Positions 3,482-47,988 of a stretch of DNA of 64,000 bases are shown one piece after another. The stretch comes from an uncultured Muribaculaceae bacterium (GTDB taxonomy: Bacteria > Bacillota_I > Bacilli_A > RF39 > UBA660): NCBI GenBank assembly GCA_964473455.1, contig CAYYQX010000001.1, positions 133,380-197,379 on the forward strand, in the 5' to 3' direction. The position numbers and the translations under genes are program-made. Under the pieces are notes generated by a model. That model was given only the letters and a program-made list of their open reading frames with translations, was not told the DNA's origin and searched no databases. Each line of letters starts with the position of its first letter. The first letter of the stretch is position 1.

Positions 3482-3982
3482 TTAATCACCTAATATATCA
3501 ATAATTTGATCTAGTTTATTTATAACTGGGTATCCTTTATCTTTAAGTGCTTTAGAAAATAGAATAGATATTCCTCCTTCTTTAGCCCATTCGTCTAGAT
3601 TACCAACATAATCATCTACTAAAATTTCTCCTTTTGTATGAACCATTTGTGTTTTTGATATTATTTTTGGAACTAAAATTATTGTAATATCTTTAAAAGT
3701 CTGCCTAATAAATTTTATTTTTTCTATGCCCTCATTTAATGAACTTATGTGGGTTAAAATATTTATATTAAATTTATTTGTTTTTATTAACTTTTTAATG
3801 CACTTAAAACTTTCGTTTATTTCTGGCGTTGTTTTTAGAATATTATGCCAATCTACAGAAGCAATAAAACTATTTGTTTCTTTAAAATTTTTTCGATCGA
3901 TATTTGCTTTTTCCAGCATTGCATATAATATCTCTATTGTATCTAATATTACCCCATCAAAATCAATATATAAGTTTCTCAT
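3482..3982 (-). CDS. HAD-superfamily hydrolase, 5'(3')-deoxyribonucleotidase-like
   Basis: N-terminal DFDGV (HAD motif I); ~165 aa, a size typical of the NT5C-like family. Confidence 0.4.
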   Translation of the reverse strand: MRNLYIDFDGVILDTIEILYAMLEKANIDRKNFKETNSFIASVDWHNILKTTPEINESFKCIKKLIKTNKFNINILTHISSLNEGIEKIKFIRQTFKDITIILVPKIISKTQMVHTKGEILVDDYVGNLDEWAKEGGISILFSKALKDKGYPVINKLDQIIDILGD

Positions 3983-9063: not shown

Positions 9064-9612
9064 ATGTTTAAAAACATTAGTATATTAGATGAAAAAAACA
9101 AAATTTTACGCACTGTATCAAAAGATGCGGTTTTTCCTATATCCGAAAAAGAAAAAGATTTAATTGCCGATATAATTAAATACTTAAAATATAGTCAAAT
9201 TGAAAAATTTGCTGAAAAATATGATCTTAGAGCAGGCATGGGACTGGCCTTTCCTCAAGTTGGAATACAAAAAAGAATTATAATTATCGTCCATGAATAT
9301 GAAGAGGGCAAATTTAAAAACTACGTCATAGTAAATCCTAGAATCATTAGTCACTCTGAAGAACAAATTGCTGCTGAAGTCGGTGAAGGATGTCTTAGTG
9401 TCAATAGAGAGGTAGAGGGCCACGTTATAAGGTGGGCTAGGATCACTGTTGACGGATTTGACGTTGATGGCAACAAACTGCAAATTAGGGCAAGAGAAGA
9501 GCTGGCAATTGCCATCCAGCATGAAATAGATCACTTAAACGGTATACTCTTTTTTGATCACATTAATAAAAATAAACCGTTTATTACAGATTCAAAAATA
9601 AGGTTAATATAA
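9064..9612 (+). CDS. def: Peptide deformylase
   Basis: GLAFPQVG, EGCLSV and HEIDHLNG motifs. Start placed at the internal ATG after the RBS and promoter. Confidence 0.9.
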   Translation: MFKNISILDEKNKILRTVSKDAVFPISEKEKDLIADIIKYLKYSQIEKFAEKYDLRAGMGLAFPQVGIQKRIIIIVHEYEEGKFKNYVIVNPRIISHSEEQIAAEVGEGCLSVNREVEGHVIRWARITVDGFDVDGNKLQIRAREELAIAIQHEIDHLNGILFFDHINKNKPFITDSKIRLI

Positions 9613-23758: not shown

Positions 23759-24991
23759 TTAAACTTTTTCTGACATTTTGTCTATTGATATATCTCTTGT
23801 GTGTTTGATTTGTTCCCATTTGGCGTTCTTTTTAAATAAACAAACAACATTAATTGGGATCCAAGAAATTAAAAATAATGGATAAGTTAAAAGACCGGCC
23901 AAAACGTTTTTTACACCTTTTTTGTTATATCTTACAACAAATACAGCAATAAATATTGTAAATAAATATGATGCGGCAAAAAAGAAATATCTCCATGCGA
24001 ACATAAAAGCAAATAAATCAGATAATTTTATGCCAATCATATTATATACAAGCAATATTGCTAACGCAATAACACTTACTACTTGAACAATAGGAGCTAA
24101 AAAGAATAAACTCATATCAAGGCAAGCTAAGCTTTTCTTCTTTAATGAGGCAACGAATAGCCTCCAAGAATACTTTATACAGCATTGATAATTTCCAATA
24201 GTCCATCTACTTCTTTGTTTCCAAGAAACTTTAAAACTAAATGGTTGTTCATCATATGTAATAGCATCTTCAATAAATACTATTTTCTTGTCATTTAACG
24301 CACACTGTGCTGTAAATTCAACATCTTCAGTTAATGTTGTCGTATTAAATCCATATTTTTCTAATACGCCTTTTTTAACCATAAAGCCTGTTCCGTTAAT
24401 AGAAGCTGATGAATTCATACTCATTCTTGCCTTACTAAAAAATAAATTTTGAACCCAATAGAATAAAGAATAGCCACCACTTATCCAACTATCTGAAGGA
24501 TTCTTACTGTCCCTATATCCTTGCGCTACTTCATATCCTTCACACAAAGCATCATTCATTCTAGATAAAAAATTTGCATGAACAATATTATCTGCATCAA
24601 AAATAATAAATGCATCAAAATCTCTATTCTTTATTAAATAATTAAAAGAATATTTTAAAACGTCTCCCTTGCAAGTAACTTTTACTTTACAATCAATTAT
24701 ACTTGCTCCAGCTTTTTCTGCTGCTCCTTTAGTATCGTCTGTACAATTATTTGGTACAACAAAAATTTCAAATAGGTTTTTTGGGTAATTTTGCTTTAAT
24801 AAGCTTTCAACCAATTTACCTATAACTTTTTCTTCGTTTCTGGACGCTATTAAAACCGCAATTTTATGTTTCGGCGCATGCTTCCCTATTTTTATTTTTG
24901 CCTTTTTAAATACAAAAAGTCCTGTTATTAAAAAATAAAAACCATATAAAATTGTTGGTATAAATATTAAATAATAAATTGCTTGAAACAT
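23759..24991 (-). CDS. Family 2 glycosyltransferase, processive synthase type (IcaA/NodC/BcsA-like), integral membrane
   Basis: DxD region (IIFDADN) and QRSRW (QxxRW) motif, with N- and C-terminal TM helices. Confidence 0.65.
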   Translation of the reverse strand: MFQAIYYLIFIPTILYGFYFLITGLFVFKKAKIKIGKHAPKHKIAVLIASRNEEKVIGKLVESLLKQNYPKNLFEIFVVPNNCTDDTKGAAEKAGASIIDCKVKVTCKGDVLKYSFNYLIKNRDFDAFIIFDADNIVHANFLSRMNDALCEGYEVAQGYRDSKNPSDSWISGGYSLFYWVQNLFFSKARMSMNSSASINGTGFMVKKGVLEKYGFNTTTLTEDVEFTAQCALNDKKIVFIEDAITYDEQPFSFKVSWKQRSRWTIGNYQCCIKYSWRLFVASLKKKSLACLDMSLFFLAPIVQVVSVIALAILLVYNMIGIKLSDLFAFMFAWRYFFFAASYLFTIFIAVFVVRYNKKGVKNVLAGLLTYPLFLISWIPINVVCLFKKNAKWEQIKHTRDISIDKMSEKV

Positions 24992-34086: not shown

Positions 34087-34797
34087 TTAATCTTTTTGTC
34101 TGTGCTTTATTAGCATTTCTTTATCTTCCTTTGAAACTCTAAAGCTATCTCTACATTTACTTATTCCTTTATTAATTGTAAATTTATTTAATTTATGAGT
34201 CTTTAAAAATTCAATCGTCTTTTCTCTTCTTTTAATAAAACATTCACAAAATAACCAAGCATTCATCATATTAACATAGTAATGAGTTTCCTTATAAAAT
34301 TTGTTCATGATTGTATAAATTTTATCAAGATAACAATCTTTTTCTATGTACTTAAATAAGATACTTAATCCAAGCCTTCTAACAAAGGGTTTATCACTTT
34401 TTATATAAGTTAGAACAAGGTCAAAAAAAAGTTCTTCTCTATTCTCAACATCAAAAGACATTAAGTCACAATTTGCCCAGTTATCTATTTTGTTGGCATA
34501 ATCGTCTAAATATTTTTTCATAGTGGTAAAATCTTTTATTTGACATATTAAAAATCCATTTATAGCTTCGTTTTCATAATAGTCACTTAAGTTTAAATCT
34601 AAAAAAGACATAAAGTTTCCTTTAGATATTTCTTTTACGAGCTCTTTTATTTTTGGCGTAGCAATAGCTAAAACCCTTTTTTCAGTATTGATTATTCTTC
34701 TAGCCCACTCAACTTTATCTGGATTGCCAAGACTCTCTAAATATTTTATAAATTCTATTCCATCTTTTTTAGTCCAATTTTCTTTTTTAAGTTCCAC
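34087..34797 (-). CDS. DNA alkylation repair enzyme (AlkD/AlkC-like HEAT-repeat glycosylase family)
   Basis: Length, Trp pattern and KVEWARRII...ATPKIKEL resemble the AlkD family (pfam08713-like). Moderate similarity only. Confidence 0.45.
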   Translation of the reverse strand: MELKKENWTKKDGIEFIKYLESLGNPDKVEWARRIINTEKRVLAIATPKIKELVKEISKGNFMSFLDLNLSDYYENEAINGFLICQIKDFTTMKKYLDDYANKIDNWANCDLMSFDVENREELFFDLVLTYIKSDKPFVRRLGLSILFKYIEKDCYLDKIYTIMNKFYKETHYYVNMMNAWLFCECFIKRREKTIEFLKTHKLNKFTINKGISKCRDSFRVSKEDKEMLIKHRQKD

Positions 34798-36379: not shown

Positions 36380-36420
36380 TAATAAAAAAATAGTTTTGGT
36401 AATACCCTAACTATTTTTTA
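36380..36420. terminator. Putative bidirectional terminator (AAAATAGTT...AACTATTTT hairpin)
   Basis: Inverted repeat with T-runs between convergent genes. Confidence 0.35.
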
Positions 36421-36449
36421 TATTGGTTTTATTTTTCTGTATTTTTATT

Positions 36450-37106
36450 TTAATCCTTTAATATATATGGCATATCTTCCATCACTTTGTCTATATTAAA
36501 TCTTCCGTTACCTACTGGATAATAAACAGAATAAGTATCATAAATATCTTTATTAATTATCTTTTTAAACTTCTTTTTTCTTACTTGTGAGACGTTTATT
36601 TTTTCTTTTAAAAACAAACTGCTTACTTGATTTCCAAAACAAATTATTTTTTTTGGATTAACTATACTTATTTCTTCATCTAACAATGATAGATACTCTT
36701 TGAATTGCGAGTCTTTTAAAGGCCTGGCGTCTTTTTGTGTGCATTTACCTAAATTAGTTATGTATATACTTTTGCTTTTGACATGATTATAAATTATTTC
36801 AGCAAAGGAAGGTGTCCATTCAGAGTTTTTTAGCTTCTTAATTTCATCATAAATGTTATTATCAATTAATTTCAAATCATTTAAAATCTTCCAAATTGTT
36901 TTAGTACCTATCCAAGGACTTTTAATCCCCTTCCATTCTTTACTCGCAGCAATATTTTTGCCAGTTGGGTTCATAAATATTAAACACAACTCAGGATTTT
37001 TTGTTTCTCCACCGTTCAGTATGGCGTCTAGGTTCTTATCGCCGTATTTGTTTTGTAATTTTATATATTTTTTGTTTAACTCATTTAGTTCTTCGCTTTT
37101 TTTCAT
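36450..37106 (-). CDS. Uracil-DNA glycosylase superfamily-like protein (putative)
   Basis: FMNPTG resembles the GMNPGP/GINPGL motif of SMUG/MUG-type UDGs. The assignment is tentative. Start set at MKKSEEL; the upstream GTG extension is repeat sequence. Confidence 0.3.
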   Translation of the reverse strand: MKKSEELNELNKKYIKLQNKYGDKNLDAILNGGETKNPELCLIFMNPTGKNIAASKEWKGIKSPWIGTKTIWKILNDLKLIDNNIYDEIKKLKNSEWTPSFAEIIYNHVKSKSIYITNLGKCTQKDARPLKDSQFKEYLSLLDEEISIVNPKKIICFGNQVSSLFLKEKINVSQVRKKKFKKIINKDIYDTYSVYYPVGNGRFNIDKVMEDMPYILKD

Positions 37107-37121
37107 AATAACACCAATATA

Positions 37122-37242
37122 AATTATAACATAAAAAATGAGCACAAATAGTAAACCATTTATGCTCAGTAGACGAACTTAATAAATTAAATGCGTCTAG
37201 GTAGTACTATACGTTGTTAAAGTTTCTTTGTCAACCTTTTTT
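37122..37242. repeat. ~122 bp direct repeat, copy 1 (family 2), containing a compensated hairpin, a T-run and TGTTATAAT
   Basis: Near-identical to 38404-38527. Contains TGAGCACAAAT-N8-ATTTATGCTCA. Confidence 0.8.
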
Positions 37243-38371
37243 CCGAAACTTTTAAAACTTCTTTTATTATTTTTTTCAGTTGCGTAGCACTATCAATGTA
37301 TTCTTGAATAATTTGTTTAAAAAAATCGTCAACATTTATTTCAAACCTATGAGAAAATTTTCTTTTGCTAATTTCGGCTAAAAGCTCGTTGCTTAGTTTA
37401 TATCTATAATAATGTTCAAAGAAAGCTTCGGAATTCATTTTTTCTATAAAAGCACTTGTATTGTCGAATTGAATAGTAATGATGGCAAGATCATTTATCA
37501 TTTGATCTAAGCCTTCTACAAATTTTTCCAATGTTTCAGGACTGTTTTCAGCAATTTTCATAATAGTCGCTTTAATAAATGGCAACTCTTCTAACAATAT
37601 CTTATAACTGCCAACTAAAAGATTATGTGCTTCTATTTGATCCGGATAAATAAACATCAAAGAGTATTCTTGATCACTTGGTGGAACTACTCCTGTTATT
37701 CGATTATCTTTAGTTTTAAAATTGAAGTTTTCATAGTGAAAATTATGATTTCTAGTTAATAAAGAAAGCAAATACTGAAGCGCTAATTGGTTCATATATT
37801 CTTTATTGTCCAAAAAAATTTCTACATTAAACATAAAAAAGAAATTGTATATTGCCATTCCATAGTTAATATACTCATTTAAAATTGAAGGTTCTGCAAA
37901 ATCACAAGATAAGCTATACTTATAAATATCATCTTGTATACTGTTGACGTGGCAGCCGTTATGAAAGCAATAAATTACTAAATCATTAATAGGATTGTTT
38001 TTTGATAAATTATTTCTTAGATACTCCATCAAATTTAACGTTTTTTCGCCCTCTTCTAAATATGATGGAACAATAACACCTTTTTCATAGGCTTTGGGTT
38101 GCAATTCTGTTATTCCTTTACAAATGGCAAGCCTGTATTGAGGAGAGTTGGGTTCAAAATATGTTCTTGCAATATAAGAACTAAAAACTTCAGAAAAAGT
38201 AAACATAATTGTACTATTTGGTTTTGTTTTTGATAATGGTTTGAAAATATATTTTTTGCCATCAAAAATATAAAAAGGAAATTCTTTTTTTGATTGCCCG
38301 GCTGCTTTTGTATCAACAGAAATGTTCCCACTTCTATCCTTATAGTCTAATTCTGTTATAGTATCAAACAT
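37217..38371 (-). CDS. Hypothetical protein (gene flanked by family-2 direct repeats)
   Basis: ORF only. Start taken at MFDTITEL, because the upstream in-frame codons are repeat sequence. Confidence 0.3.
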   Translation of the reverse strand: MFDTITELDYKDRSGNISVDTKAAGQSKKEFPFYIFDGKKYIFKPLSKTKPNSTIMFTFSEVFSSYIARTYFEPNSPQYRLAICKGITELQPKAYEKGVIVPSYLEEGEKTLNLMEYLRNNLSKNNPINDLVIYCFHNGCHVNSIQDDIYKYSLSCDFAEPSILNEYINYGMAIYNFFFMFNVEIFLDNKEYMNQLALQYLLSLLTRNHNFHYENFNFKTKDNRITGVVPPSDQEYSLMFIYPDQIEAHNLLVGSYKILLEELPFIKATIMKIAENSPETLEKFVEGLDQMINDLAIITIQFDNTSAFIEKMNSEAFFEHYYRYKLSNELLAEISKRKFSHRFEINVDDFFKQIIQEYIDSATQLKKIIKEVLKVSEKRLTKKL

Positions 38372-38403
38372 ATTAAAATTTTCCACATTATTCCCCCTAA
38401 AAA

Positions 38404-38527
38404 AATTATAACATAAAAAAATGATCACAAATAGTAAACTATTTATGATCAGTAGACGAACTTAATAAATTAAATGCGTCTAGGTAGTACTATACGGCAT
38501 TAAAGATTCTTTGTCAATCTTTTTTTA
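38404..38527. repeat. ~122 bp direct repeat, copy 2 (family 2)
   Basis: Near-identical to 37122-37242. Its hairpin is TGATCACAAAT-N8-ATTTATGATCA, with compensatory changes relative to copy 1. Confidence 0.8.
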
Positions 38528-39089
38528 TGCTTTTTATATATTGATCTATTTCTTCTCTTTCACTTTGAAACAAAATAGGCAAAAAGCCTGCCACAATCGC
38601 ATCTTTATCTACATCAATTCTACTATACAAACCATTACTTAAATATCCTGTTATTCCTTGATCTTGTTTATTATTTACAACTCCTGTTATTGCTTCAATT
38701 ATTTTATTTAATGACCCTCCCTTTTGGGCAAAATCAAACATAGTTTGACTTATTCTTATACTAATTGATTTGCCAACAGATTTTTCACCTAGCAAATCTT
38801 CTATCGCACAATATGTAACTATAAAAGGTAATCCCATTTCGTCTAAAGCAAAGCCACCTTCAATGGAACAAAGATAATCATATTTTATATTATTATCAAT
38901 AGCCCGTTTTTTTAACTCTTGGTTTCTGTTATCTGCTCCTCTAATAATCTCACTATCTATTGGTTTACTACTAACACCAGAATCGACTTTAACAGTTATA
39001 ATCTCATATTCAACTATACCGAGTTTTTCTAGTGCTTTTTCAAGAGCTAATTTTTTGCCTGGATTTTCGCTTCCTAATAATATTTTCAT
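38514..39089 (-). CDS. Inosine/xanthosine triphosphatase (YjjX/DUF84 family, non-canonical NTP house-cleaning)
   Basis: VKVDSGVSSKPIDSEIIRGADNR parallels the E. coli YjjX region [26 protein letters not shown] (recalled from memory); ~190 aa. Confidence 0.5.
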   Translation of the reverse strand: MKILLGSENPGKKLALEKALEKLGIVEYEIITVKVDSGVSSKPIDSEIIRGADNRNQELKKRAIDNNIKYDYLCSIEGGFALDEMGLPFIVTYCAIEDLLGEKSVGKSISIRISQTMFDFAQKGGSLNKIIEAITGVVNNKQDQGITGYLSNGLYSRIDVDKDAIVAGFLPILFQSEREEIDQYIKSIKKD

Positions 39090-39177
39090 AAATTCACCTA
39101 CCAATAATTATTCCCTTTGAAGCACTATTATAACACAAAAAAACAATAAATATATTTTAAAATTAACACTTACTATA

Positions 39178-43231: not shown

Positions 43232-43311
43232 TAATTCAAAAACTTGATATTTTCATATCAAGTCTTATATTTCAATTATGACATAGAATCAAAGGGGGTT
43301 CCCAAATTTTT
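43231..43311. repeat. Family-1 ~85 bp intergenic repeat, copy A (variant; perfect palindrome CTTGATAT-TTTC-ATATCAAG)
   Basis: Shares ...cttgatattttcata...agaatcaaagggggttcccaaattttt with the other copies. Lies between the convergent ABC operon end and the GNAT gene stop. Confidence 0.7.
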
Positions 43312-43313
43312 GT

Positions 43314-43793
43314 TTAAATATGCTTCATCACTTCCAAATTTCTGTCTGAATAATTATTTCTATAATAAAAACTCTTAGCCTTTTCGTTATAACCAAAAAC
43401 TTCTATTAATATTGCCTTACAGCCAACCAATTTAAAATGAGTTTCCATCTCATCCATTAATTGTCTTCCTATTCCTTTTGCTCTACAATTACTAGAAACA
43501 ATTAATTCTGTTATTCTTCCTCGTTTTGGCGCTCTAAACTCATAAGTGTTTTGTTCTTCATTATTAATTAAGCCTACTATTAACCCAATAGCTTTGTCAT
43601 TTTCAACAGCTAAAAACATTTTACCTTCAAAATCATTTATTTCTTTTATAGTCTTTTTAAATTCAATCTCCCTGTATTCATCATTAATTATGTTGTAGCC
43701 ATCTTTATCTATTGAAACTATATATTCTTGTAATTCAACCAATAAATCTTTTATGTCTTCGTCATATTTTGTATTATAATCAATTATATTCAT
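43314..43793 (-). CDS. GNAT family N-acetyltransferase (cassette 6)
   Basis: Acetyl-CoA-binding motif RAKGIGRQLM. Confidence 0.7.
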   Translation of the reverse strand: MNIIDYNTKYDEDIKDLLVELQEYIVSIDKDGYNIINDEYREIEFKKTIKEINDFEGKMFLAVENDKAIGLIVGLINNEEQNTYEFRAPKRGRITELIVSSNCRAKGIGRQLMDEMETHFKLVGCKAILIEVFGYNEKAKSFYYRNNYSDRNLEVMKHI

Positions 43794-43810
43794 TATTGCA
43801 CCTCTATATT

Positions 43811-43894
43811 TATTATATCAAAAAACTTGATATTCTCATACCAAGTTCAACTAATTCATATTTGGCATGGAATCAAAGGGGATTCCCAAATTTT
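43811..43894. repeat. Family-1 ~85 bp repeat, copy B (full length)
   Basis: attatatcaaaaaacttgatattctcataccaagttcaactaattcatatttggcatggaatcaaaggggattcccaaatttttt. Confidence 0.85.
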
Positions 43895-44482
43895 TTATTT
43901 CTTATTTTCCACTACAGCTTTTTTATATTTATCATATTCTTTTCGTAAATAATCAAAGGTAACTTCTTTTTTTAATACGACAGGTAATTTCAATAAATAT
44001 TCATAAATTGGCTTTTCATCTCTATATGTTTTCTTATTTTCCCAATAATATTTGGCATTTATTATTGTATCGTAGTTTGACCATCCTCTTATTAAATTCA
44101 TATCATGTTTTTCATAATAATCATATTCTACTTCATAGACTTTAAAGAATTCAAAATCCAATTCCTTTTTTTCAATAAATTGAAATAATCCTTCAATATC
44201 AAAAGCAAAAAAGGATTGGAATCGAGATAGTTTATCAGGATAGTTAATTATTCTTTCATATTCAAATATAATATCCATCCCACTACTTTTTGTATCGTAT
44301 TCATTTAAAAAGTAACGTCTACCATGGAGTGATAACTTGTCATCATATCTTTTTTTAATAATTTCTAAATTTTCTTTAAATACTGGCTTCAAATAGTCAT
44401 ATTTGTCTATATACTCTATTTTTTGATTTTCTTGTAATAAACCGCTTCTATCAATATGATAAAGTTTCATATTTTTCACCAC
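43895..44482 (-). CDS. Hypothetical protein (cassette 5)
   Basis: ORF with an AAGTGGTGA RBS. The stop codon abuts the repeat. Confidence 0.3.
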   Translation of the reverse strand: MVKNMKLYHIDRSGLLQENQKIEYIDKYDYLKPVFKENLEIIKKRYDDKLSLHGRRYFLNEYDTKSSGMDIIFEYERIINYPDKLSRFQSFFAFDIEGLFQFIEKKELDFEFFKVYEVEYDYYEKHDMNLIRGWSNYDTIINAKYYWENKKTYRDEKPIYEYLLKLPVVLKKEVTFDYLRKEYDKYKKAVVENKK

Positions 44483-44577
44483 TTTCTCTTTTATTATAAC
44501 AAAAAACTTGATATTTTCATACCAAGTTCGACTAATTCATATTTGGCATGGAATCAAAGGGGTTTCCCAAATTTTCA
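44483..44577. repeat. Family-1 repeat, copy C (full length; -10 variant TGTTATAAT)
   Basis: ttattataacaaaaaacttgatattttcataccaagttcgactaattcatatttggcatggaatcaaaggggtttcccaaattttca. Confidence 0.85.
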
Positions 44578-44976
44578 TTTATCTTTTTTTTCGATCTTTA
44601 TATGCTTAGCCATATCACCAATTCTTATTGTCTTATCGCCATCACCAGAAATTTCTGTCGGCTCAATTTCTAGTTTTTTCTGTTTAGAACCAAAGATGTT
44701 ATTTGAAAATATAGAAGACATATATTCTGATATATATGCTGTTTCACAAACACACATTTTTTCATAAACTTCAGTAACGTTTAATCTAGCTTTTACTATT
44801 TCTAGATTGCCTAAATTTTCTTTTGTTTCAGGGTCTATAATAGTTTCTCCTTTGCCGATAATTTGCATCATATCGCCTCGGGATATACCATTATTTGAAC
44901 CACCATTTACTATTAACGAAGTATCATTAATTATTTTTATTACTTTAAAATCATTGCTCATTTTCTTTCCCTCCAT
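44575..44976 (-). CDS. Hypothetical soluble protein (cassette 4, second gene)
   Basis: ORF; overlaps the upstream membrane-protein gene by 26 nt. Confidence 0.3.
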   Translation of the reverse strand: MEGKKMSNDFKVIKIINDTSLIVNGGSNNGISRGDMMQIIGKGETIIDPETKENLGNLEIVKARLNVTEVYEKMCVCETAYISEYMSSIFSNNIFGSKQKKLEIEPTEISGDGDKTIRIGDMAKHIKIEKKDK

Positions 44977-45385
44977 TTATATTACCTATGAAATTTTTAA
45001 TAATTGTATTAGTCACTTGCAATTTCTGTTCTTTTGTAATTTTGTCAAATGATATTAATACAGCCATAGTATCAAAAAAAAATTTTTGAAGCATTTCATT
45101 TTTATATATTTCGTTTTTTAACTCTATTTGATTTTCTTTAAAATTATTACTTAAAGCTTGATAATTCATATATTGTTTTTCATATTCTTTATAAAATTTG
45201 TTTACATTTATAACATATATTATCCCATTAATAATCAAACCCAAAATAATTGAACCAATAATAAATGTTATCTTGTAAGAATCAGGAATCTTATTCCAAA
45301 AACTAAACAAAGCAAGAACATTTACTATTGATATAATAAATGTTATCTTCCCTGTAAAAAAACGAGGTTTTTCTCTTATAACCAT
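44951..45385 (-). CDS. Hypothetical membrane protein with two TM helices and a coiled-coil tail (cassette 4, first gene)
   Basis: ORF with an AGGTGA RBS. Hydrophobic segments at residues ~12-30 and ~38-60. Confidence 0.3.
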   Translation of the reverse strand: MVIREKPRFFTGKITFIISIVNVLALFSFWNKIPDSYKITFIIGSIILGLIINGIIYVINVNKFYKEYEKQYMNYQALSNNFKENQIELKNEIYKNEMLQKFFFDTMAVLISFDKITKEQKLQVTNTIIKNFIGNINGGKENEQ

Positions 45386-45620
45386 AAAATCACCTACTGT
45401 ATTAAAACTTTAATATCCTTTTTCTTTATATATCGATATTATATCATTTTTACATAATATAATCCATACTTTCTATTTGCAAAGTTTCAATTCATAGACT
45501 TATGTTCTTCTATGGTTTTCTTAGACAATACTTTTTTCACTTCTCGTTATTATAATAAAAAGTATGATACTCCATTACCATTGTAATTCCGTACCTTTTT
45601 AATATTCCAGCCCATATTTG

Positions 45621-45692
45621 CTTGAAACTTTTAATTATATTGTAAAATTAAATATGAACGTGGATTTCCAAGTTTTACAATATTTATTTTCA
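45621..45692. repeat. Family-1 repeat, degenerate copy D
   Basis: Begins aattatattg, then ...cgtggatttccaagttttacaat, which resembles ...catggaatcaaaggggattcccaaatttt; weak. Confidence 0.35.
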
Positions 45693-45696
45693 AATA

Positions 45697-46191
45697 TTAA
45701 TGTTCTAAATGTTTATGCACTGAATGGGGTAATATTTCAATCTTTTCATCTAAAGATAAGTCATCTCTTTTAATGATGTGTGCAATGCATGATTTCTTAA
45801 TTTTAGCTTTATTTTTAATTAAATAGTCAGCTGATGGTTTCATATATTGAACTATCATTTCAAAGGAACATTTTTCTTCTTCTAATAAAGATAATATTTG
45901 TTCATAAGATAATTCCTTTAATATTTTTATCTTATTTGTTGTAAAATAATATCCTTTTTCATACCCGTCATTTCTGGCTTTGAATTTACATATCTCACCA
46001 AGAGGTGTAACTATACAAACTCTAATATTTTTACTATTACTAAAATTAATTAGTGTTGAACTTATATGCTCTGCATAATGAAACCATTCCCAATTATCAA
46101 TGTTATCGGTTTGATACGTTTTCCCTATCTCAAATTGATAACCGCCATATCCCATAAATTCGCTGTCAAAAGCTTTATAGTATTTAATCAT
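45697..46191 (-). CDS. Hypothetical protein (cassette 3)
   Basis: ORF with a GGAGG RBS. Confidence 0.3.
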   Translation of the reverse strand: MIKYYKAFDSEFMGYGGYQFEIGKTYQTDNIDNWEWFHYAEHISSTLINFSNSKNIRVCIVTPLGEICKFKARNDGYEKGYYFTTNKIKILKELSYEQILSLLEEEKCSFEMIVQYMKPSADYLIKNKAKIKKSCIAHIIKRDDLSLDEKIEILPHSVHKHLEH

Positions 46192-46274
46192 TTAGTACCT
46201 CCAATATACAACTATATTTTACTTTATCTTTCAATCAATCAAATATAAGCATATTGTTTTTCTTTTTTCCACCG

Positions 46275-46303
46275 CATGGAATCAAAGGGGATTCCCAAAT
46301 TTT
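46275..46303. repeat. Family-1 repeat, truncated copy E (3' hairpin half only)
   Basis: catggaatcaaaggggattcccaaatttt immediately after the stop of cassette 2. Confidence 0.6.
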
Positions 46304-46703
46304 ACATTTTTTTGTGATTATTTATATCGTTTAAACCTTCTTCATCAACAATACCAAATGTCTCTCTCAAAAAGTCCATTTCACTATGTTTTAAATTAGA
46401 AAATACAGCTCTATTTATTAAAACACCAGTGTGTTTGTTAAATCTCCAAGGAATATATTTATTTTCCTCGTAGACATTTAGATTACCATCAACAATTTGG
46501 GTACCTATAATCTTGCATTGAGTTGCATAGGCCTCTTTGCTTTCTTTTCCTTCATAATCTACAATTAGATTAAATCCGTAATGCTCTGTACCAAGCATAA
46601 CACCGTTATCTAAAGAAAGATTTTCTTCATTAGTAATCATCACGTTATCTTTAGTACTTAGTTTTAATGTAATTGGATCTAACATTTTTGGTTCTAAAAT
46701 CAT
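46302..46703 (-). CDS. Hypothetical protein (cassette 2)
   Basis: ORF. Start placed at the ATG after an AGAGGTG RBS; the listed GTG is 3 codons upstream. Confidence 0.3.
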   Translation of the reverse strand: MILEPKMLDPITLKLSTKDNVMITNEENLSLDNGVMLGTEHYGFNLIVDYEGKESKEAYATQCKIIGTQIVDGNLNVYEENKYIPWRFNKHTGVLINRAVFSNLKHSEMDFLRETFGIVDEEGLNDINNHKKM

Positions 46704-46722
46704 TATAAACACCTCTATAATA

Positions 46723-46806
46723 ATTATATCAAAAAACTTGATATTTAGATACCAAGTTCAACTAATTTATATATGGCATGGAATCAAAGGGGATTCCCAA
46801 ATTTTT
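46723..46806. repeat. Family-1 repeat, copy F (full length)
   Basis: attatatcaaaaaacttgatatttagataccaagttcaactaatttatatatggcatggaatcaaaggggattcccaaattttt. Confidence 0.85.
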
Positions 46807-46828
46807 AATTTACTCTATATTTTTTGCA

Positions 46829-47848
46829 TTATAATAAATTTTTCATATCATAATCAACTTTATATATAGTATTGTCTAAATAACTAACAATCACTAGTTC
46901 TTTATCAGTATTATATATAAATGTAGCAGCAGTAATACTATTATCATCCTCGATGGTCATATTTCTAATTGATAATTTATAATCATCTGTATGATACTGT
47001 AAAATCTTTAAGATATCTTCTTTATTCTCTATTTTTAATTTTTCTAAAAGGTCTTCACTTTTTTGCAATCTGAATTTTGTATTTGACCCAGGCTCCGCAA
47101 TTGGGAATCCTACTTCTTTTCTAGTAAGATGATTGGAGTGAGCAAACTTATCTTTGACTTCTAATACAGATAAATTATTTAGTCTCCATTCAATTGAATA
47201 AGCTCTTTTGGCGTTTGTATCAATAATATTAACATTACAGCCGCTCGCTGCATCCTCAATATTTAAATGTTCTAATACTTCTTCTATATTTTTACATTCA
47301 ATTAAATTTCTTAAGATAAACCATGTAGGAATGCCGTTAATATTTTTATGGTGAATATATATATAATTACAAGTAAAAATTAAACCATGACTATTCCAGC
47401 TGAAAGTAGAACCTGGCAATGTATCATTACAATAATATTCACAAAAGAAGCCATAATTCGTTATATACTTTATTAAACCTGTATTTTTTAATGAATAAGG
47501 TCCGTCTTCGTTATGACCTCCAATTATTTTGTTACCAATCTTTGCTATAACATCAGTACATCTTTCCCTTTCAGTATATATTTCATAACAAATAAATAAT
47601 AAATAAGCATCTCTGTCTACTTTTGCCCCATCAGCTTTACCATAAGCTTCTTGCAAATATTCGGGATACAATTTTTCTAGCTTTCCTTTTACTATATTCA
47701 AAGTGTCTTTTATTAAAGTGTTTTCAAGTAATTCTCTTGTTATTTTGCAGTTTTCTTGTATATCATCCTTATAAATTTCACCCAATTTATATGAACGTGA
47801 ATACAAATCACCCTCAACTTGACCAATATATAACTTATCAAATCTCAT
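46829..47848 (-). CDS. Hypothetical protein (cassette 1; possible hydrolase, weak)
   Basis: ORF with a GGTGGTGA RBS. GGHNEDG and Cys-rich segments vaguely recall Ntn-hydrolase/C45-like proteins. No confident assignment. Confidence 0.3.
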   Translation of the reverse strand: MRFDKLYIGQVEGDLYSRSYKLGEIYKDDIQENCKITRELLENTLIKDTLNIVKGKLEKLYPEYLQEAYGKADGAKVDRDAYLLFICYEIYTERERCTDVIAKIGNKIIGGHNEDGPYSLKNTGLIKYITNYGFFCEYYCNDTLPGSTFSWNSHGLIFTCNYIYIHHKNINGIPTWFILRNLIECKNIEEVLEHLNIEDAASGCNVNIIDTNAKRAYSIEWRLNNLSVLEVKDKFAHSNHLTRKEVGFPIAEPGSNTKFRLQKSEDLLEKLKIENKEDILKILQYHTDDYKLSIRNMTIEDDNSITAATFIYNTDKELVIVSYLDNTIYKVDYDMKNLL

Positions 47849-47863
47849 ACTATCACCACCATT

Positions 47864-47914
47864 ATTATATCAAAAAACTTGATATTTTCATACCAAGTTC
47901 AACTAATTCATATT
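47864..47914. repeat. Family-1 repeat, copy G (promoter/terminator half) fused directly to the tRNA-Trp 3' end
   Basis: attatatcaaaaaacttgatattttcataccaagttcaactaattcatatt runs into tggca. tggca is both repeat sequence and the complement of the tRNA 3'-TGCCA. Confidence 0.8.
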
Positions 47915-47988
47915 TGGCAGGGGCGGAGAGAATTGAACTCCCAACCACGGTTTTGGAGACCGCTATTATACCATTTAACTACGCCCCT
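47915..47988 (-). tRNA. tRNA-Trp (anticodon CCA), CCA encoded
   Basis: AGGGGCGTAGTTAAATGGTA...GGTCTCCAAAACCGT...GGGAGTTCAATTCTCTCCGCCCCTGCCA closely resembles Bacillus tRNA-Trp. Anticodon loop CTCCAAA. Confidence 0.85.

What the first reader, a model, noticed from the sequence alone, without database searches (positions are those of the whole stretch)
37122..38527. Second repeat family: ~122 bp direct repeats flanking a 1.2 kb gene, with compensatory mutations in a hairpin and the same terminator-plus-TGnTATAAT design
Two near-identical ~122 bp copies bracket the 403-aa hypothetical gene. Each contains an 11 bp stem hairpin. Copy 1 reads TGAGCACAAAT-N8-ATTTATGCTCA and copy 2 reads TGATCACAAAT-N8-ATTTATGATCA. 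The G/C to T/A changes are compensatory and preserve pairing, which argues for selection on the structure. In gene orientation the hairpin is followed by a T-run and TGTTATAAT (an extended -10), then the RBS of the downstream gene. A second palindrome (GACG...CGTC) and TAGTACTA also occur. The repeat supplies the last codons and stop of the upstream gene in both positions. This is the same insulator logic as the 85 bp family but with unrelated sequence. It suggests the genome uses modular terminator-promoter repeats to stitch acquired genes together. The bracketed gene looks like a single inserted cassette.
Basis: seen in the sequence. Interest (0 to 1): 0.65.

Follow-up and report, generated by a model that had tools for sequence, protein, structure and literature searches.

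The report
Duplicated promoter-terminator module flanking one gene
Two 93%-identical copies of one ~121-bp intergenic control region sit in front of two unrelated neighbouring genes of an uncultured low-GC bacterium. Each holds a strong promoter, a short two-hairpin transcript ending in a terminator, and a second promoter; it looks like an ordinary pairwise case of promoter reuse, because no third copy was found anywhere searchable.

Summary
Two direct copies lie 1283 bp apart (R1 37123-37242, R2 38405-38525, minus strand). They are 93% identical with a 48-nt identical core, and they bracket one gene. The terminator hairpin carries one G-C to U-A double change and one G.U to A-U change.

It is a near-consensus promoter (A-tract, TTGACA-17-TATAGT) that overlaps the stop codon of the upstream gene. 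Each copy therefore reads: promoter P1, a ~65-nt RNA of two hairpins whose second is an intrinsic terminator, the extended -10 TGTTATAAT (P2), then the RBS.

All substitutions between the copies spare the promoter hexamers and the base pairing (p ~0.004-0.02).

No third copy turned up in the window, in 21 related loci, or in pattern scans of GTDB genomes, JGI metagenomes and IMG/VR. BLAST against plasmid and phage records also found nothing. There is no Rfam match. The closest relatives are not syntenic, so the empty-site test could not be run.

The bracketed gene encodes a CtkA/HipA-like kinase-fold protein.

Best reading: one intergenic expression module was reused upstream of two unrelated genes, matching the "putative mobile promoter" pairs described in the literature. 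It is not a demonstrated repeat family. Interest is modest.

The parts
38405..38525 (-). Repeat copy R2 (about 121 nt), between the DUF84/ITPase-like gene and the kinase-fold gene
37123..37242 (-). Repeat copy R1 (about 120 nt), between the kinase-fold gene and the UDG-family gene
38489..38517 (-). R2 promoter P1: TTGACA-17-TATAGT, preceded by the A-tract 38520-38525. The DUF84 stop codon TGA (38514-38516) lies inside the -35 hexamer.
37206..37234 (-). R1 promoter P1: TTGACA-17-TATAGT, preceded by the A-tract 37237-37242. The stop codon TAA of the kinase-fold gene (37217-37219) lies in the spacer.
38453..38482 (-). R2 hairpin 1 (UAGACG.CAUUUAA-UUUA-UUAAGU.CGUCUA, 12 bp), identical in both copies
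37170..37199 (-). R1 hairpin 1
38415..38451 (-). R2 hairpin 2 (13 bp, U-A variant, 38422-38451) plus U7 (38415-38421): intrinsic terminator
37133..37168 (-). R1 hairpin 2 (13 bp, G-C variant, 37139-37168) plus U6 (37133-37138): intrinsic terminator
38405..38413 (-). R2 promoter P2: extended -10 TGTTATAAT. It is followed, outside the repeat, by SD GGGGG (38393-38397) and the GTG start at 38386.
37123..37131 (-). R1 promoter P2: extended -10 TGTTATAAT. It is followed, outside the repeat, by SD GGTG (37112-37115) and the ATG start at 37106.
37217..38386 (-). Bracketed gene, 389 aa: protein-kinase-like fold (CtkA/HipA-like), no Pfam or PADLOC family
38514..39089 (-). Upstream gene, 191 aa, NTPase_I-T/DUF84 (ITPase/XTPase-like). 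Its own promoter, TTTTTTGTGTTATAAT, is at 39127-39142.
36450..37106 (-). Downstream gene, 218 aa, uracil-DNA glycosylase superfamily. A terminator hairpin follows at about 36400-36440.

Best explanation
R is a compact intergenic expression module that has been copied once, so that it now precedes two unrelated adjacent genes. This is promoter reuse, probably linked to the gain of the kinase-fold gene.

In gene orientation each copy has these parts, in order:
(a) An A-tract and a near-consensus sigma-A/sigma-70 promoter P1, which overlaps the last codons and stop of the upstream gene.
(b) About 65 transcribed nucleotides that fold into two independent hairpins. The second hairpin, with its U-run, is an intrinsic terminator.
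(c) An extended -10 promoter P2 fused to the U-run, 16-19 nt before the start codon.

How it would work:
- The terminator ends the upstream mRNA and any P1 transcript.
- P1 therefore yields a short two-hairpin RNA with the same 3' end as the upstream mRNA.
- P2 re-initiates transcription for the downstream gene.

What is shown and what is inferred:
- Shown: the sequence elements, their geometry, the fold and its strand asymmetry, the duplication, and the pattern of substitutions.
- Inferred: that P1 and P2 fire, that the hairpin terminates, that a ~65-nt RNA accumulates, and that the duplication came from recombination when the kinase-fold gene was acquired.
For: - Two copies at 93% identity upstream of non-paralogous genes.
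- The repeat boundaries coincide with module boundaries. They run from the A-tract to the last base of TGTTATAAT, and the SD and start codons are not part of the repeat.
- P1 is the top promoter hit in 33-49 kb (11/12). Only 4 sites in 64 kb match within 1 mismatch, against 0.76 expected. The other two lie 24-26 nt upstream of gene starts.
- The two hairpins fold at -25.3 and -23.6 kcal/mol, with z-scores of -6.8 and -7.5.
- The antisense strand folds much worse because of G.U pairs.
- The terminator scan detects both copies.
- T-run + TGnTATAAT is enriched in the window (9 found, 2.2 expected). It also precedes the DUF84 gene without any hairpin.
- All 7 substitutions avoid the 20 promoter positions and break no pair: p ~0.004, or ~0.02 if CAA>TGC counts as one event.
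- The pair meets the operational description of putative mobile promoters, which are mostly pairs averaging 92% identity upstream of unrelated genes (PMC3575422).
- ORF-internal promoters that make an sRNA corresponding to the mRNA 3' end are known, e.g. MicX (PMC9438474).
Against: - There are no expression data.
- With only two copies, the covariation evidence is one pair, and the tool's shuffle control is uninformative. Template switching can create such double changes in one step.
- A strong promoter placed just before a terminator is odd unless the short RNA matters, and its function is unknown.
- No relative is close enough to show the ancestral state, so the link to acquisition of the gene is conjecture.
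- The G+C content of the bracketed gene (~0.28) does not differ from its surroundings.
Confidence: 0.55

Rival explanations
1. R is one member of a dispersed family of mobile terminator-promoter 'insulator' repeats that the genome uses to stitch in acquired genes, and the kinase-fold gene is a cassette delivered with it.
For: - The lineage does own such a dispersed module. The ACTTGRTAT-loop-ATCAAGT + T-run + TGnTATAAT module has 5 copies in the window and recurs in relatives L003, L012 (5 or more in 20 kb) and L013.
- The regulatory module upstream of the UDG orthologue differs between genomes: R here, the 85-type module in L012.
- Homologues of the bracketed gene sit in varied contexts.
Against: - No third copy of R was found in the window or in 21 loci with an nhmmer profile.
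- Exact-pattern scans of 185,579 species genomes, JGI metagenomes and IMG/VR gave 0 hits. BLAST against plasmids and phages found nothing.
- There is no recombinase or transposase within about 10 kb.
- There is no target-site duplication, and the only 'terminal inverted repeat' is made of the A-run and the T-run (I17).
Confidence: 0.15
2. The selected product is a trans-acting small RNA of about 65 nt and two hairpins, encoded in two copies. The promoter-terminator layout is simply an sRNA gene nested at the 3' end of the upstream genes.
For: - A near-consensus promoter with an A-tract, followed after about 65 nt by a strong terminator.
- Hexamers and pairing are preserved while the spacer varies.
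- Strand-specific G.U pairs.
- Multicopy sRNAs, and sRNAs made from ORF-internal promoters, are known.
Against: - No Rfam match, even at E<=10.
- No homologue in any collection.
- No outstanding complementary target in the 64-kb window other than itself.
- The loops are UUUA and the single-stranded regions are very short, so there is no obvious seed.
Confidence: 0.12
3. R is a regulated leader (attenuator). P1 is the real promoter of the downstream gene and hairpin 2 is a conditional terminator, so the kinase-fold gene and the UDG gene are co-regulated.
For: The order promoter - leader - terminator - RBS is the classic attenuator order. Two genes share an identical leader.
Against: - No alternative antiterminator pairing exists. 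With the 3' arm blocked, hairpin 1 is unchanged and the terminator's 5' arm stays essentially unpaired. The nascent RNA folds only into hairpin 1.
- No conserved leader peptide: the AUG inside hairpin 2 of R1 is AUA in R2.
- The leader is too short for known riboswitch classes, and Rfam finds nothing.
- A separate promoter, P2, lies downstream of the terminator.
Confidence: 0.08
4. R is a recombination or transposition site: an integron attC, MITE ends, or IS200/IS605-type subterminal hairpins bracketing a passenger gene.
For: Direct repeats with hairpins bracket a single accessory-looking gene. The size, about 120 bp, resembles chromosomal attC sites.
Against: - No RYYYAAC or GTTRRRY core sites.
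- There are two separate hairpins rather than one long imperfect palindrome.
- No integrase or transposase nearby.
- The bracketed protein is a kinase fold, not TnpB or TnpA.
- No target-site duplication.
Confidence: 0.03

Closest known systems
Putative mobile promoters / promoter reuse (Matus-Garcia, Nijveen & van Passel 2012; PMC3575422)
   Same: Highly similar upstream non-coding sequence (at least 80% over at least 50 nt) in front of non-paralogous genes of one genome. Most such families are pairs with about 92% identity. Most are not associated with any known mobile element or Rfam family, and their mobilisation mechanism is unknown.
   Different: Here the two copies are adjacent and bracket a single gene. 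The element overlaps the 3' end of the upstream coding sequences. It carries a complete promoter-RNA-terminator unit in addition to the downstream gene's promoter.
The window's own '85-bp' hairpin / T-run / TGATATAAT module (43238-47898), shared with related genomes
   Same: The same layout as the 3' half of R: an RNA-type hairpin with G.U pairs, a T-run, an extended -10, and then an SD and start codon 15-19 nt later.
   Different: The sequence is unrelated. It has many copies and is conserved across related genomes. It has no upstream TTGACA-17-TATAGT promoter and no second hairpin.
sRNAs made from an ORF-internal promoter that share the parental mRNA's terminator (e.g. MicX; review PMC9438474)
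   Same: The promoter lies in or over the end of the upstream coding sequence, and a short structured transcript ends at the mRNA's own intrinsic terminator.
   Different: Those are experimentally detected RNAs, mostly Hfq-dependent and proteobacterial, with known seeds and targets. Here nothing is known about expression or targets.
MITE-like intergenic repeats that carry promoters or terminators (Correia, ERIC, BOX, RUP; reviews PMC10969869, PMC3184786)
   Same: Short non-coding repeats of about 100-150 bp that can supply promoters, terminators and even the last codons of neighbouring genes.
   Different: Those have terminal inverted repeats, target-site duplications, and tens to hundreds of dispersed copies. 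R has none of these.
Integron gene cassettes with attC sites
   Same: A single gene bracketed by similar structured repeats of about 120 bp in direct orientation.
   Different: R has no core sites, no single long palindrome and no integrase. Cassettes are normally promoterless, whereas R is promoter-rich.

Membership tests
Intrinsic (Rho-independent) terminator | Stable G+C-containing stem-loop immediately followed by a U-run on the transcribed strand | tested here: met
   13-bp stem with a 4-nt loop, then U6 or U7. Both copies were found by the terminator scan and by folding.
Intrinsic (Rho-independent) terminator | Actual termination of transcription | not testable with these tools
   Needs Term-seq or in vitro transcription.
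Sigma-70/sigma-A promoter | -35 and -10 hexamers close to consensus with a 16-18 bp spacer, or a TGn extended -10 | tested here: met
   P1 is TTGACA-17-TATAGT (11/12), the best hit in 16 kb. P2 is TGTTATAAT.
Sigma-70/sigma-A promoter | Mapped transcription start | not testable with these tools
   No transcript data are available.
Putative mobile promoter (PMP) pair | At least 80% identity over at least 50 nt in the upstream regions of two genes of one genome | tested here: met
   93% over 110 nt, spanning about -17 to -139 from the start codons.
Putative mobile promoter (PMP) pair | The adjacent coding sequences are not paralogous | tested here: met
   BLASTP best E = 3.0. One protein is a kinase fold, the other belongs to the UDG family.
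Putative mobile promoter (PMP) pair | The upstream fragment does not overlap a flanking gene's coding region (a filter used in the original survey) | tested here: not met
   Both copies overlap the last 3-7 codons of the upstream gene.
Dispersed repeat family / MITE | Many dispersed copies in the genome | tested here: inconclusive
   Only 2 copies in the 64-kb window and none in any collection. The rest of the source genome could not be searched.
Dispersed repeat family / MITE | Terminal inverted repeats and a target-site duplication | tested here: not met
   The only end-to-end inverted repeat is 20 nt at 80%, made of the A-run and the T-run (I17). The flanks share no duplication.
Integron attC / gene cassette | Core sites RYYYAAC and GTTRRRY at the ends of one imperfect palindrome | tested here: not met
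   No match to either core in R1 or R2. There are two separate hairpins.
Integron attC / gene cassette | An integron integrase in the neighbourhood | tested here: not met
   No recombinase domain in ORFs from 30 to 49 kb.
Riboswitch / transcription attenuator | Mutually exclusive antiterminator structure, or a match to a known aptamer | tested here: not met
   Constrained folding gives no competitor for the terminator's 5' arm. Rfam finds nothing.
Type III toxin-antitoxin (ToxIN-like) | Tandem array of antitoxin RNA repeats, then a terminator, then an endoribonuclease toxin gene | tested here: not met
   There is a single unit and no tandem array. The downstream protein is a kinase fold. The same element also precedes a UDG gene.
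Any curated RNA family (Rfam 15) | A covariance-model hit at the gathering threshold | tested here: not met
   Only three tRNAs in the window. Nothing credible at E<=10 in 37050-38600.

The most novel reading that the evidence does not exclude
R encodes a previously undescribed, strongly expressed ~65-nt two-hairpin RNA that is functionally tied to the CtkA/HipA-like kinase-fold gene it brackets. It could be an RNA regulator or antidote of a toxin-like kinase that lacks the HTH partner seen next to a homologue (L004). On this reading the R - gene - R unit moves by recombination between its flanking copies. A weak hint: the apex of hairpin 1 (ATTTAATTTATTAA[G/A]TTC) recurs exactly about 40 nt upstream of a 45%-identical homologue in another lineage (p ~0.015).
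Probability: 0.08. Interest if true: 0.6.

Novelty: new member of a known kind. Interest (0 to 1): 0.3.

Why it matters
If the reading is right, this is a clean, fully parsed example of how a compact promoter / short RNA / terminator / promoter unit gets reused to give an accessory gene and its neighbour independent, insulated expression in a tiny-intergenic, 28% G+C genome. Together with the lineage-wide hairpin/TGnTATAAT module seen in passing, it suggests that this group of uncultured Bacilli builds much of its intergenic space from a few reusable modules. That makes the group a tractable place to study promoter propagation. On its own, a two-copy duplication with no expression data does not change what is known.

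Tried and rejected
- **Further copies.** I looked for them several ways and found none:
  - a 45-mer with up to 3 mismatches in the window;
  - whole-window repeat detection;
  - an nhmmer profile over the window plus all loci fetched up to that point (L001-L016);
  - gapped and IUPAC patterns covering hairpin 1 with its flanks, hairpin 2, and the P1 promoter, scanned against GTDB species genomes, JGI metagenomes and IMG/VR;
  - blastn against plasmid and phage records.
- **Empty-site test.**
  - Exact-protein look-ups for the three genes found only unitigs of the same strain.
  - The nearest relatives found through DUF84 (63%) and through UDG (74-76%) are not syntenic and lack R. The test could not be run.
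- **Known RNA family.** Rfam at the gathering threshold and at E<=10 gave nothing.
- **Attenuator.** Constrained and nascent-RNA folds show no antiterminator.
- **Trans target.** An RNAduplex scan of the window found only R itself and its own antisense strand.
- **attC, MITE or IS.** No core sites, no convincing terminal inverted repeats or target-site duplication, and no recombinase.
- **Small ORFs in the repeat.**
  - A 14-codon ORF on the + strand is kept in both copies, but all three differences are non-synonymous and it has no RBS.
  - An 11-codon ORF on the minus strand loses its AUG in R2.
  - I rejected both (read).
- **'HEPN' label.** One JGI homologue of the bracketed protein carries this name. 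It is not supported, because the model is a kinase fold.
- **Formal covariation statistics.** They are uninformative with two sequences.
Full report
**1. What is there**

All genes in 34-39 kb run on the minus strand. In gene order they are:
- a DUF84/NTPase_I-T gene (38514-39089);
- repeat copy R2;
- a 389-aa gene (GTG at 38386, ending at 37217);
- repeat copy R1;
- a UDG-superfamily gene (37106-36450);
- a terminator hairpin shared with a convergent ORF.

The repeat finder gives two copies of 110 nt at 93% identity, 1283 bp apart. Alignment extends the similarity to about 121 nt. A 45-mer from the core occurs exactly twice, with 0 expected. The longest identical stretch is 48 nt. The similarity starts at an A-tract inside the last codons of the upstream gene and ends with the last base of TGTTATAAT. 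The Shine-Dalgarno sequences and start codons that follow are different.

**2. Anatomy in gene orientation**

From 5' to 3' each copy holds the following elements.
- AAAAAAG(G/A) followed by TTGACA, a 17-nt spacer and TATAGT. This is the best sigma-70-type match in 33-49 kb (11 of 12).
  - Only four sites in the whole window match within one mismatch (0.76 expected).
  - The other two lie 24-26 nt upstream of gene starts at 24991 and 28787, so in this genome such matches look like real promoters.
  - From general knowledge of UP elements, the A-tract sits roughly where a proximal UP subsite would.
- Hairpin 1 (12 bp, identical in both copies).
- One unpaired base.
- Hairpin 2 (13 bp, 4-nt loop).
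- U6 or U7.
- A, then TGTTATAAT.

The 75-nt stretch folds at -25.3 kcal/mol (R1) and -23.6 kcal/mol (R2), with z-scores of -6.8 and -7.5 against dinucleotide shuffles. The opposite strand reaches only -14.6 and -16.7 kcal/mol, because three pairs are G.U. The structure is therefore an RNA feature of the gene-sense strand. The terminator scan finds hairpin 2 in both copies.

The two upstream genes stop inside the repeat in different frames:
- the DUF84 gene at a TGA that overlaps TTGACA;
- the 389-aa gene at a TAA within the promoter spacer.

**3. Differences between the copies**

Between TTGACA and TATAAT there are seven substitutions and one indel:
- four substitutions in the P1 spacer (A/T, and CAA/TGC);
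- G-C to U-A, on both sides of one pair of hairpin 2;
- G.U to A-U in the same stem;
- one extra U in the U-run.

None touches the 20 promoter-defining positions and none breaks a pair. Random placement achieves that with p ~0.004, or ~0.02 if CAA>TGC counts as one event. For the three changes in the RNA part alone, p is ~0.003-0.005.

This is suggestive of constraint, with three caveats:
- the sample is two sequences;
- the tool's shuffle control cannot discriminate (237/500);
- a double change in a stem can arise in one template-switch event without selection on RNA (PMC8794818).

**4. Is it a family?**

No third copy was found by any of these routes:
- whole-window repeat detection;
- an nhmmer profile over the window and the loci fetched up to that point (L001-L016);
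- exact-pattern scans with three different parts of the element against 185,579 species genomes, JGI metagenomes and IMG/VR;
- blastn against plasmids and phages.

Rfam has nothing.

The source is an uncultured low-G+C Bacilli-like MAG. The NCBI contig is 204,917 nt, and the same strain is present in Logan run SRR8925806. I could not read the rest of that genome, so 'only two copies' holds for what was searchable, not for the whole genome.

Two Logan unitigs are exact substrings of the window and end 30 nt into the 48-nt core, as a k=31 graph requires. This independently confirms both copies and their distinguishing flanks.

**5. Relatives**

- The nearest UDG orthologues (76% in JGI locus L012; 74% in GCA_964396655.1, locus L014) and the nearest DUF84 orthologues (63%) are not syntenic and lack R.
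- Homologues of the bracketed gene (64% in L003, 45% in L004, and others) sit in varied contexts and also lack R.
- The UDG orthologue in L012 and the kinase-gene homologue in L003 are each preceded by the other module of this window: ACTTGGTAT-loop-ATCAAGT + T-run + TGnTATAAT.
- So the hairpin / T-run / extended -10 design is a lineage habit, and the module in front of a given gene is exchangeable between genomes.

**6. The bracketed gene**

- It has no Pfam or PADLOC family.
- An alignment of 42 homologues shows invariant motifs: FKPLSKTKP, NFHYEN and D..E.S.
- HipA_C matches weakly in 11 of the 42 (best E 0.005).
- The AlphaFold model is confident (pLDDT 94, pTM 0.93).
- Its best PDB matches are atypical kinases: H. 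pylori CtkA (E 1.4e-5), CotH, MavQ and HipT.
- It is therefore a divergent CtkA/HipA-like kinase-fold protein and an accessory-looking gene.
- The 'HEPN' label on one homologue is not supported.
- It is unrelated to the UDG gene.

**7. Mechanism**

The best-supported reading is that R is an expression module reused once.
- Hairpin 2 terminates the upstream mRNA.
- P2 restarts transcription for the next gene. T-run + TGnTATAAT is enriched in the window (9 against 2.2 expected) and also drives the DUF84 gene without a hairpin.
- P1, if active, makes a ~65-nt two-hairpin RNA that shares the upstream mRNA's 3' end. That arrangement is known for sRNAs made from ORF-internal promoters (PMC9438474).

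A conditional attenuator is unlikely, because no antiterminator pairing exists. attC, MITE and IS readings fail their defining features.

The pair fits the published description of putative mobile promoters: mostly pairs, mean identity 92%, upstream of unrelated genes, and mostly without a known mobile element or Rfam family (PMC3575422). Because R-geneA-R-geneB cannot arise by a simple tandem duplication, the arrangement implies one of two histories:
- recombination of an R-carrying segment into a resident R;
- independent copying of R.

Which one happened is not known.

**8. Verdict**

- the terminator-plus-promoter logic and the parallel with the other family hold;
- 'family', 'cassette' and 'selection proven by compensation' are not established;
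- the promoter in the 5' half was missed.

Novelty: a new member of a known kind. Interest is about 0.3.

Noticed in passing
window 43238-43263, 43821-43846, 44502-44527, 46732-46757, 47873-47898 (minus strand); L003 340-365; L012 4961-4985 and 9951-9975 (plus looser copies at 3730, 7778, 9527); L013 856-880: The hairpin ACTTGRTAT-loop-ATCAAGT + T-run + TG(A/T)TATAAT (the '85-bp family') has 5 copies in the window, with 0 expected. It also occurs in related genomes from JGI metagenomes, upstream of unrelated genes that include the UDG orthologue and the kinase-gene homologue. It is a lineage-wide, multi-copy terminator/promoter module and looks more interesting than the two-copy repeat studied here.
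   Followed up: partly
window 37217-38386 (minus strand): The bracketed 'hypothetical' gene encodes a confident protein-kinase-like fold (pLDDT 94). It is closest to H. pylori CtkA, CotH, MavQ and HipT, and 11 of 42 homologues give weak HipA_C hits. It has no Pfam or PADLOC family and only about 54 homologues in 5.8 billion proteins.
   Followed up: partly
window 37175-37192 and 38458-38475 (minus strand); L004 5006-5023, also L005-L008: The 18-mer at the apex of hairpin 1, ATTTAATTTATTAA[G/A]TTC, recurs exactly about 40 nt upstream of a 45%-identical homologue of the kinase-fold gene in another lineage. There it forms a perfect 8-bp palindrome just before TGTTATAAT. Local-alignment p is ~0.015, so it could be a shared operator or chance in AT-rich DNA.
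   Followed up: partly
L018 2409-4107; window 36450-38386: A 32%-identical homologue of the kinase-fold gene sits immediately after a DNA glycosylase gene (Adenine_glyco/Tag). In the window the kinase-fold gene sits immediately before a UDG-family glycosylase and after an ITPase-like gene, with a DNA-alkylation-repair gene nearby at 34087-34797. This may be a link to DNA repair or nucleotide sanitation, or it may be coincidence.
   Followed up: no
L012 6158-6224 and 9411-9477: A related genome has its own two-copy repeat of TTGACA-18-TAAAAT directly followed by a hairpin and T8. At 9527 it is followed by an 85-type hairpin/TGATATAAT module in front of a MazG gene. This is the same two-part layout as R, with different sequence.
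   Followed up: no
window 37104-37131, 38384-38413, 43780-43830; L012 9975-10003: The extended -10 boxes of both repeat families sit only 15-19 nt from the start codon, so the Shine-Dalgarno sequence would lie at the extreme 5' end of the mRNA. This compact promoter-RBS geometry recurs in a relative.
   Followed up: no
window 47851-47988 (minus strand): One copy of the 85-bp-family module directly abuts the 3' end of tRNA-Trp(CCA). The 5' part of that 'repeat copy' is in fact the tRNA.
   Followed up: no
L015 and L016 (Logan runs SRR8925774 and SRR8925805), first bases: Unitigs of the sister organism (UDG 74% identical) also begin 91 nt upstream of its UDG gene, next to a hairpin + T-run (L014 9920-9960). 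This may mark another repeated intergenic element in that genome.
   Followed up: no
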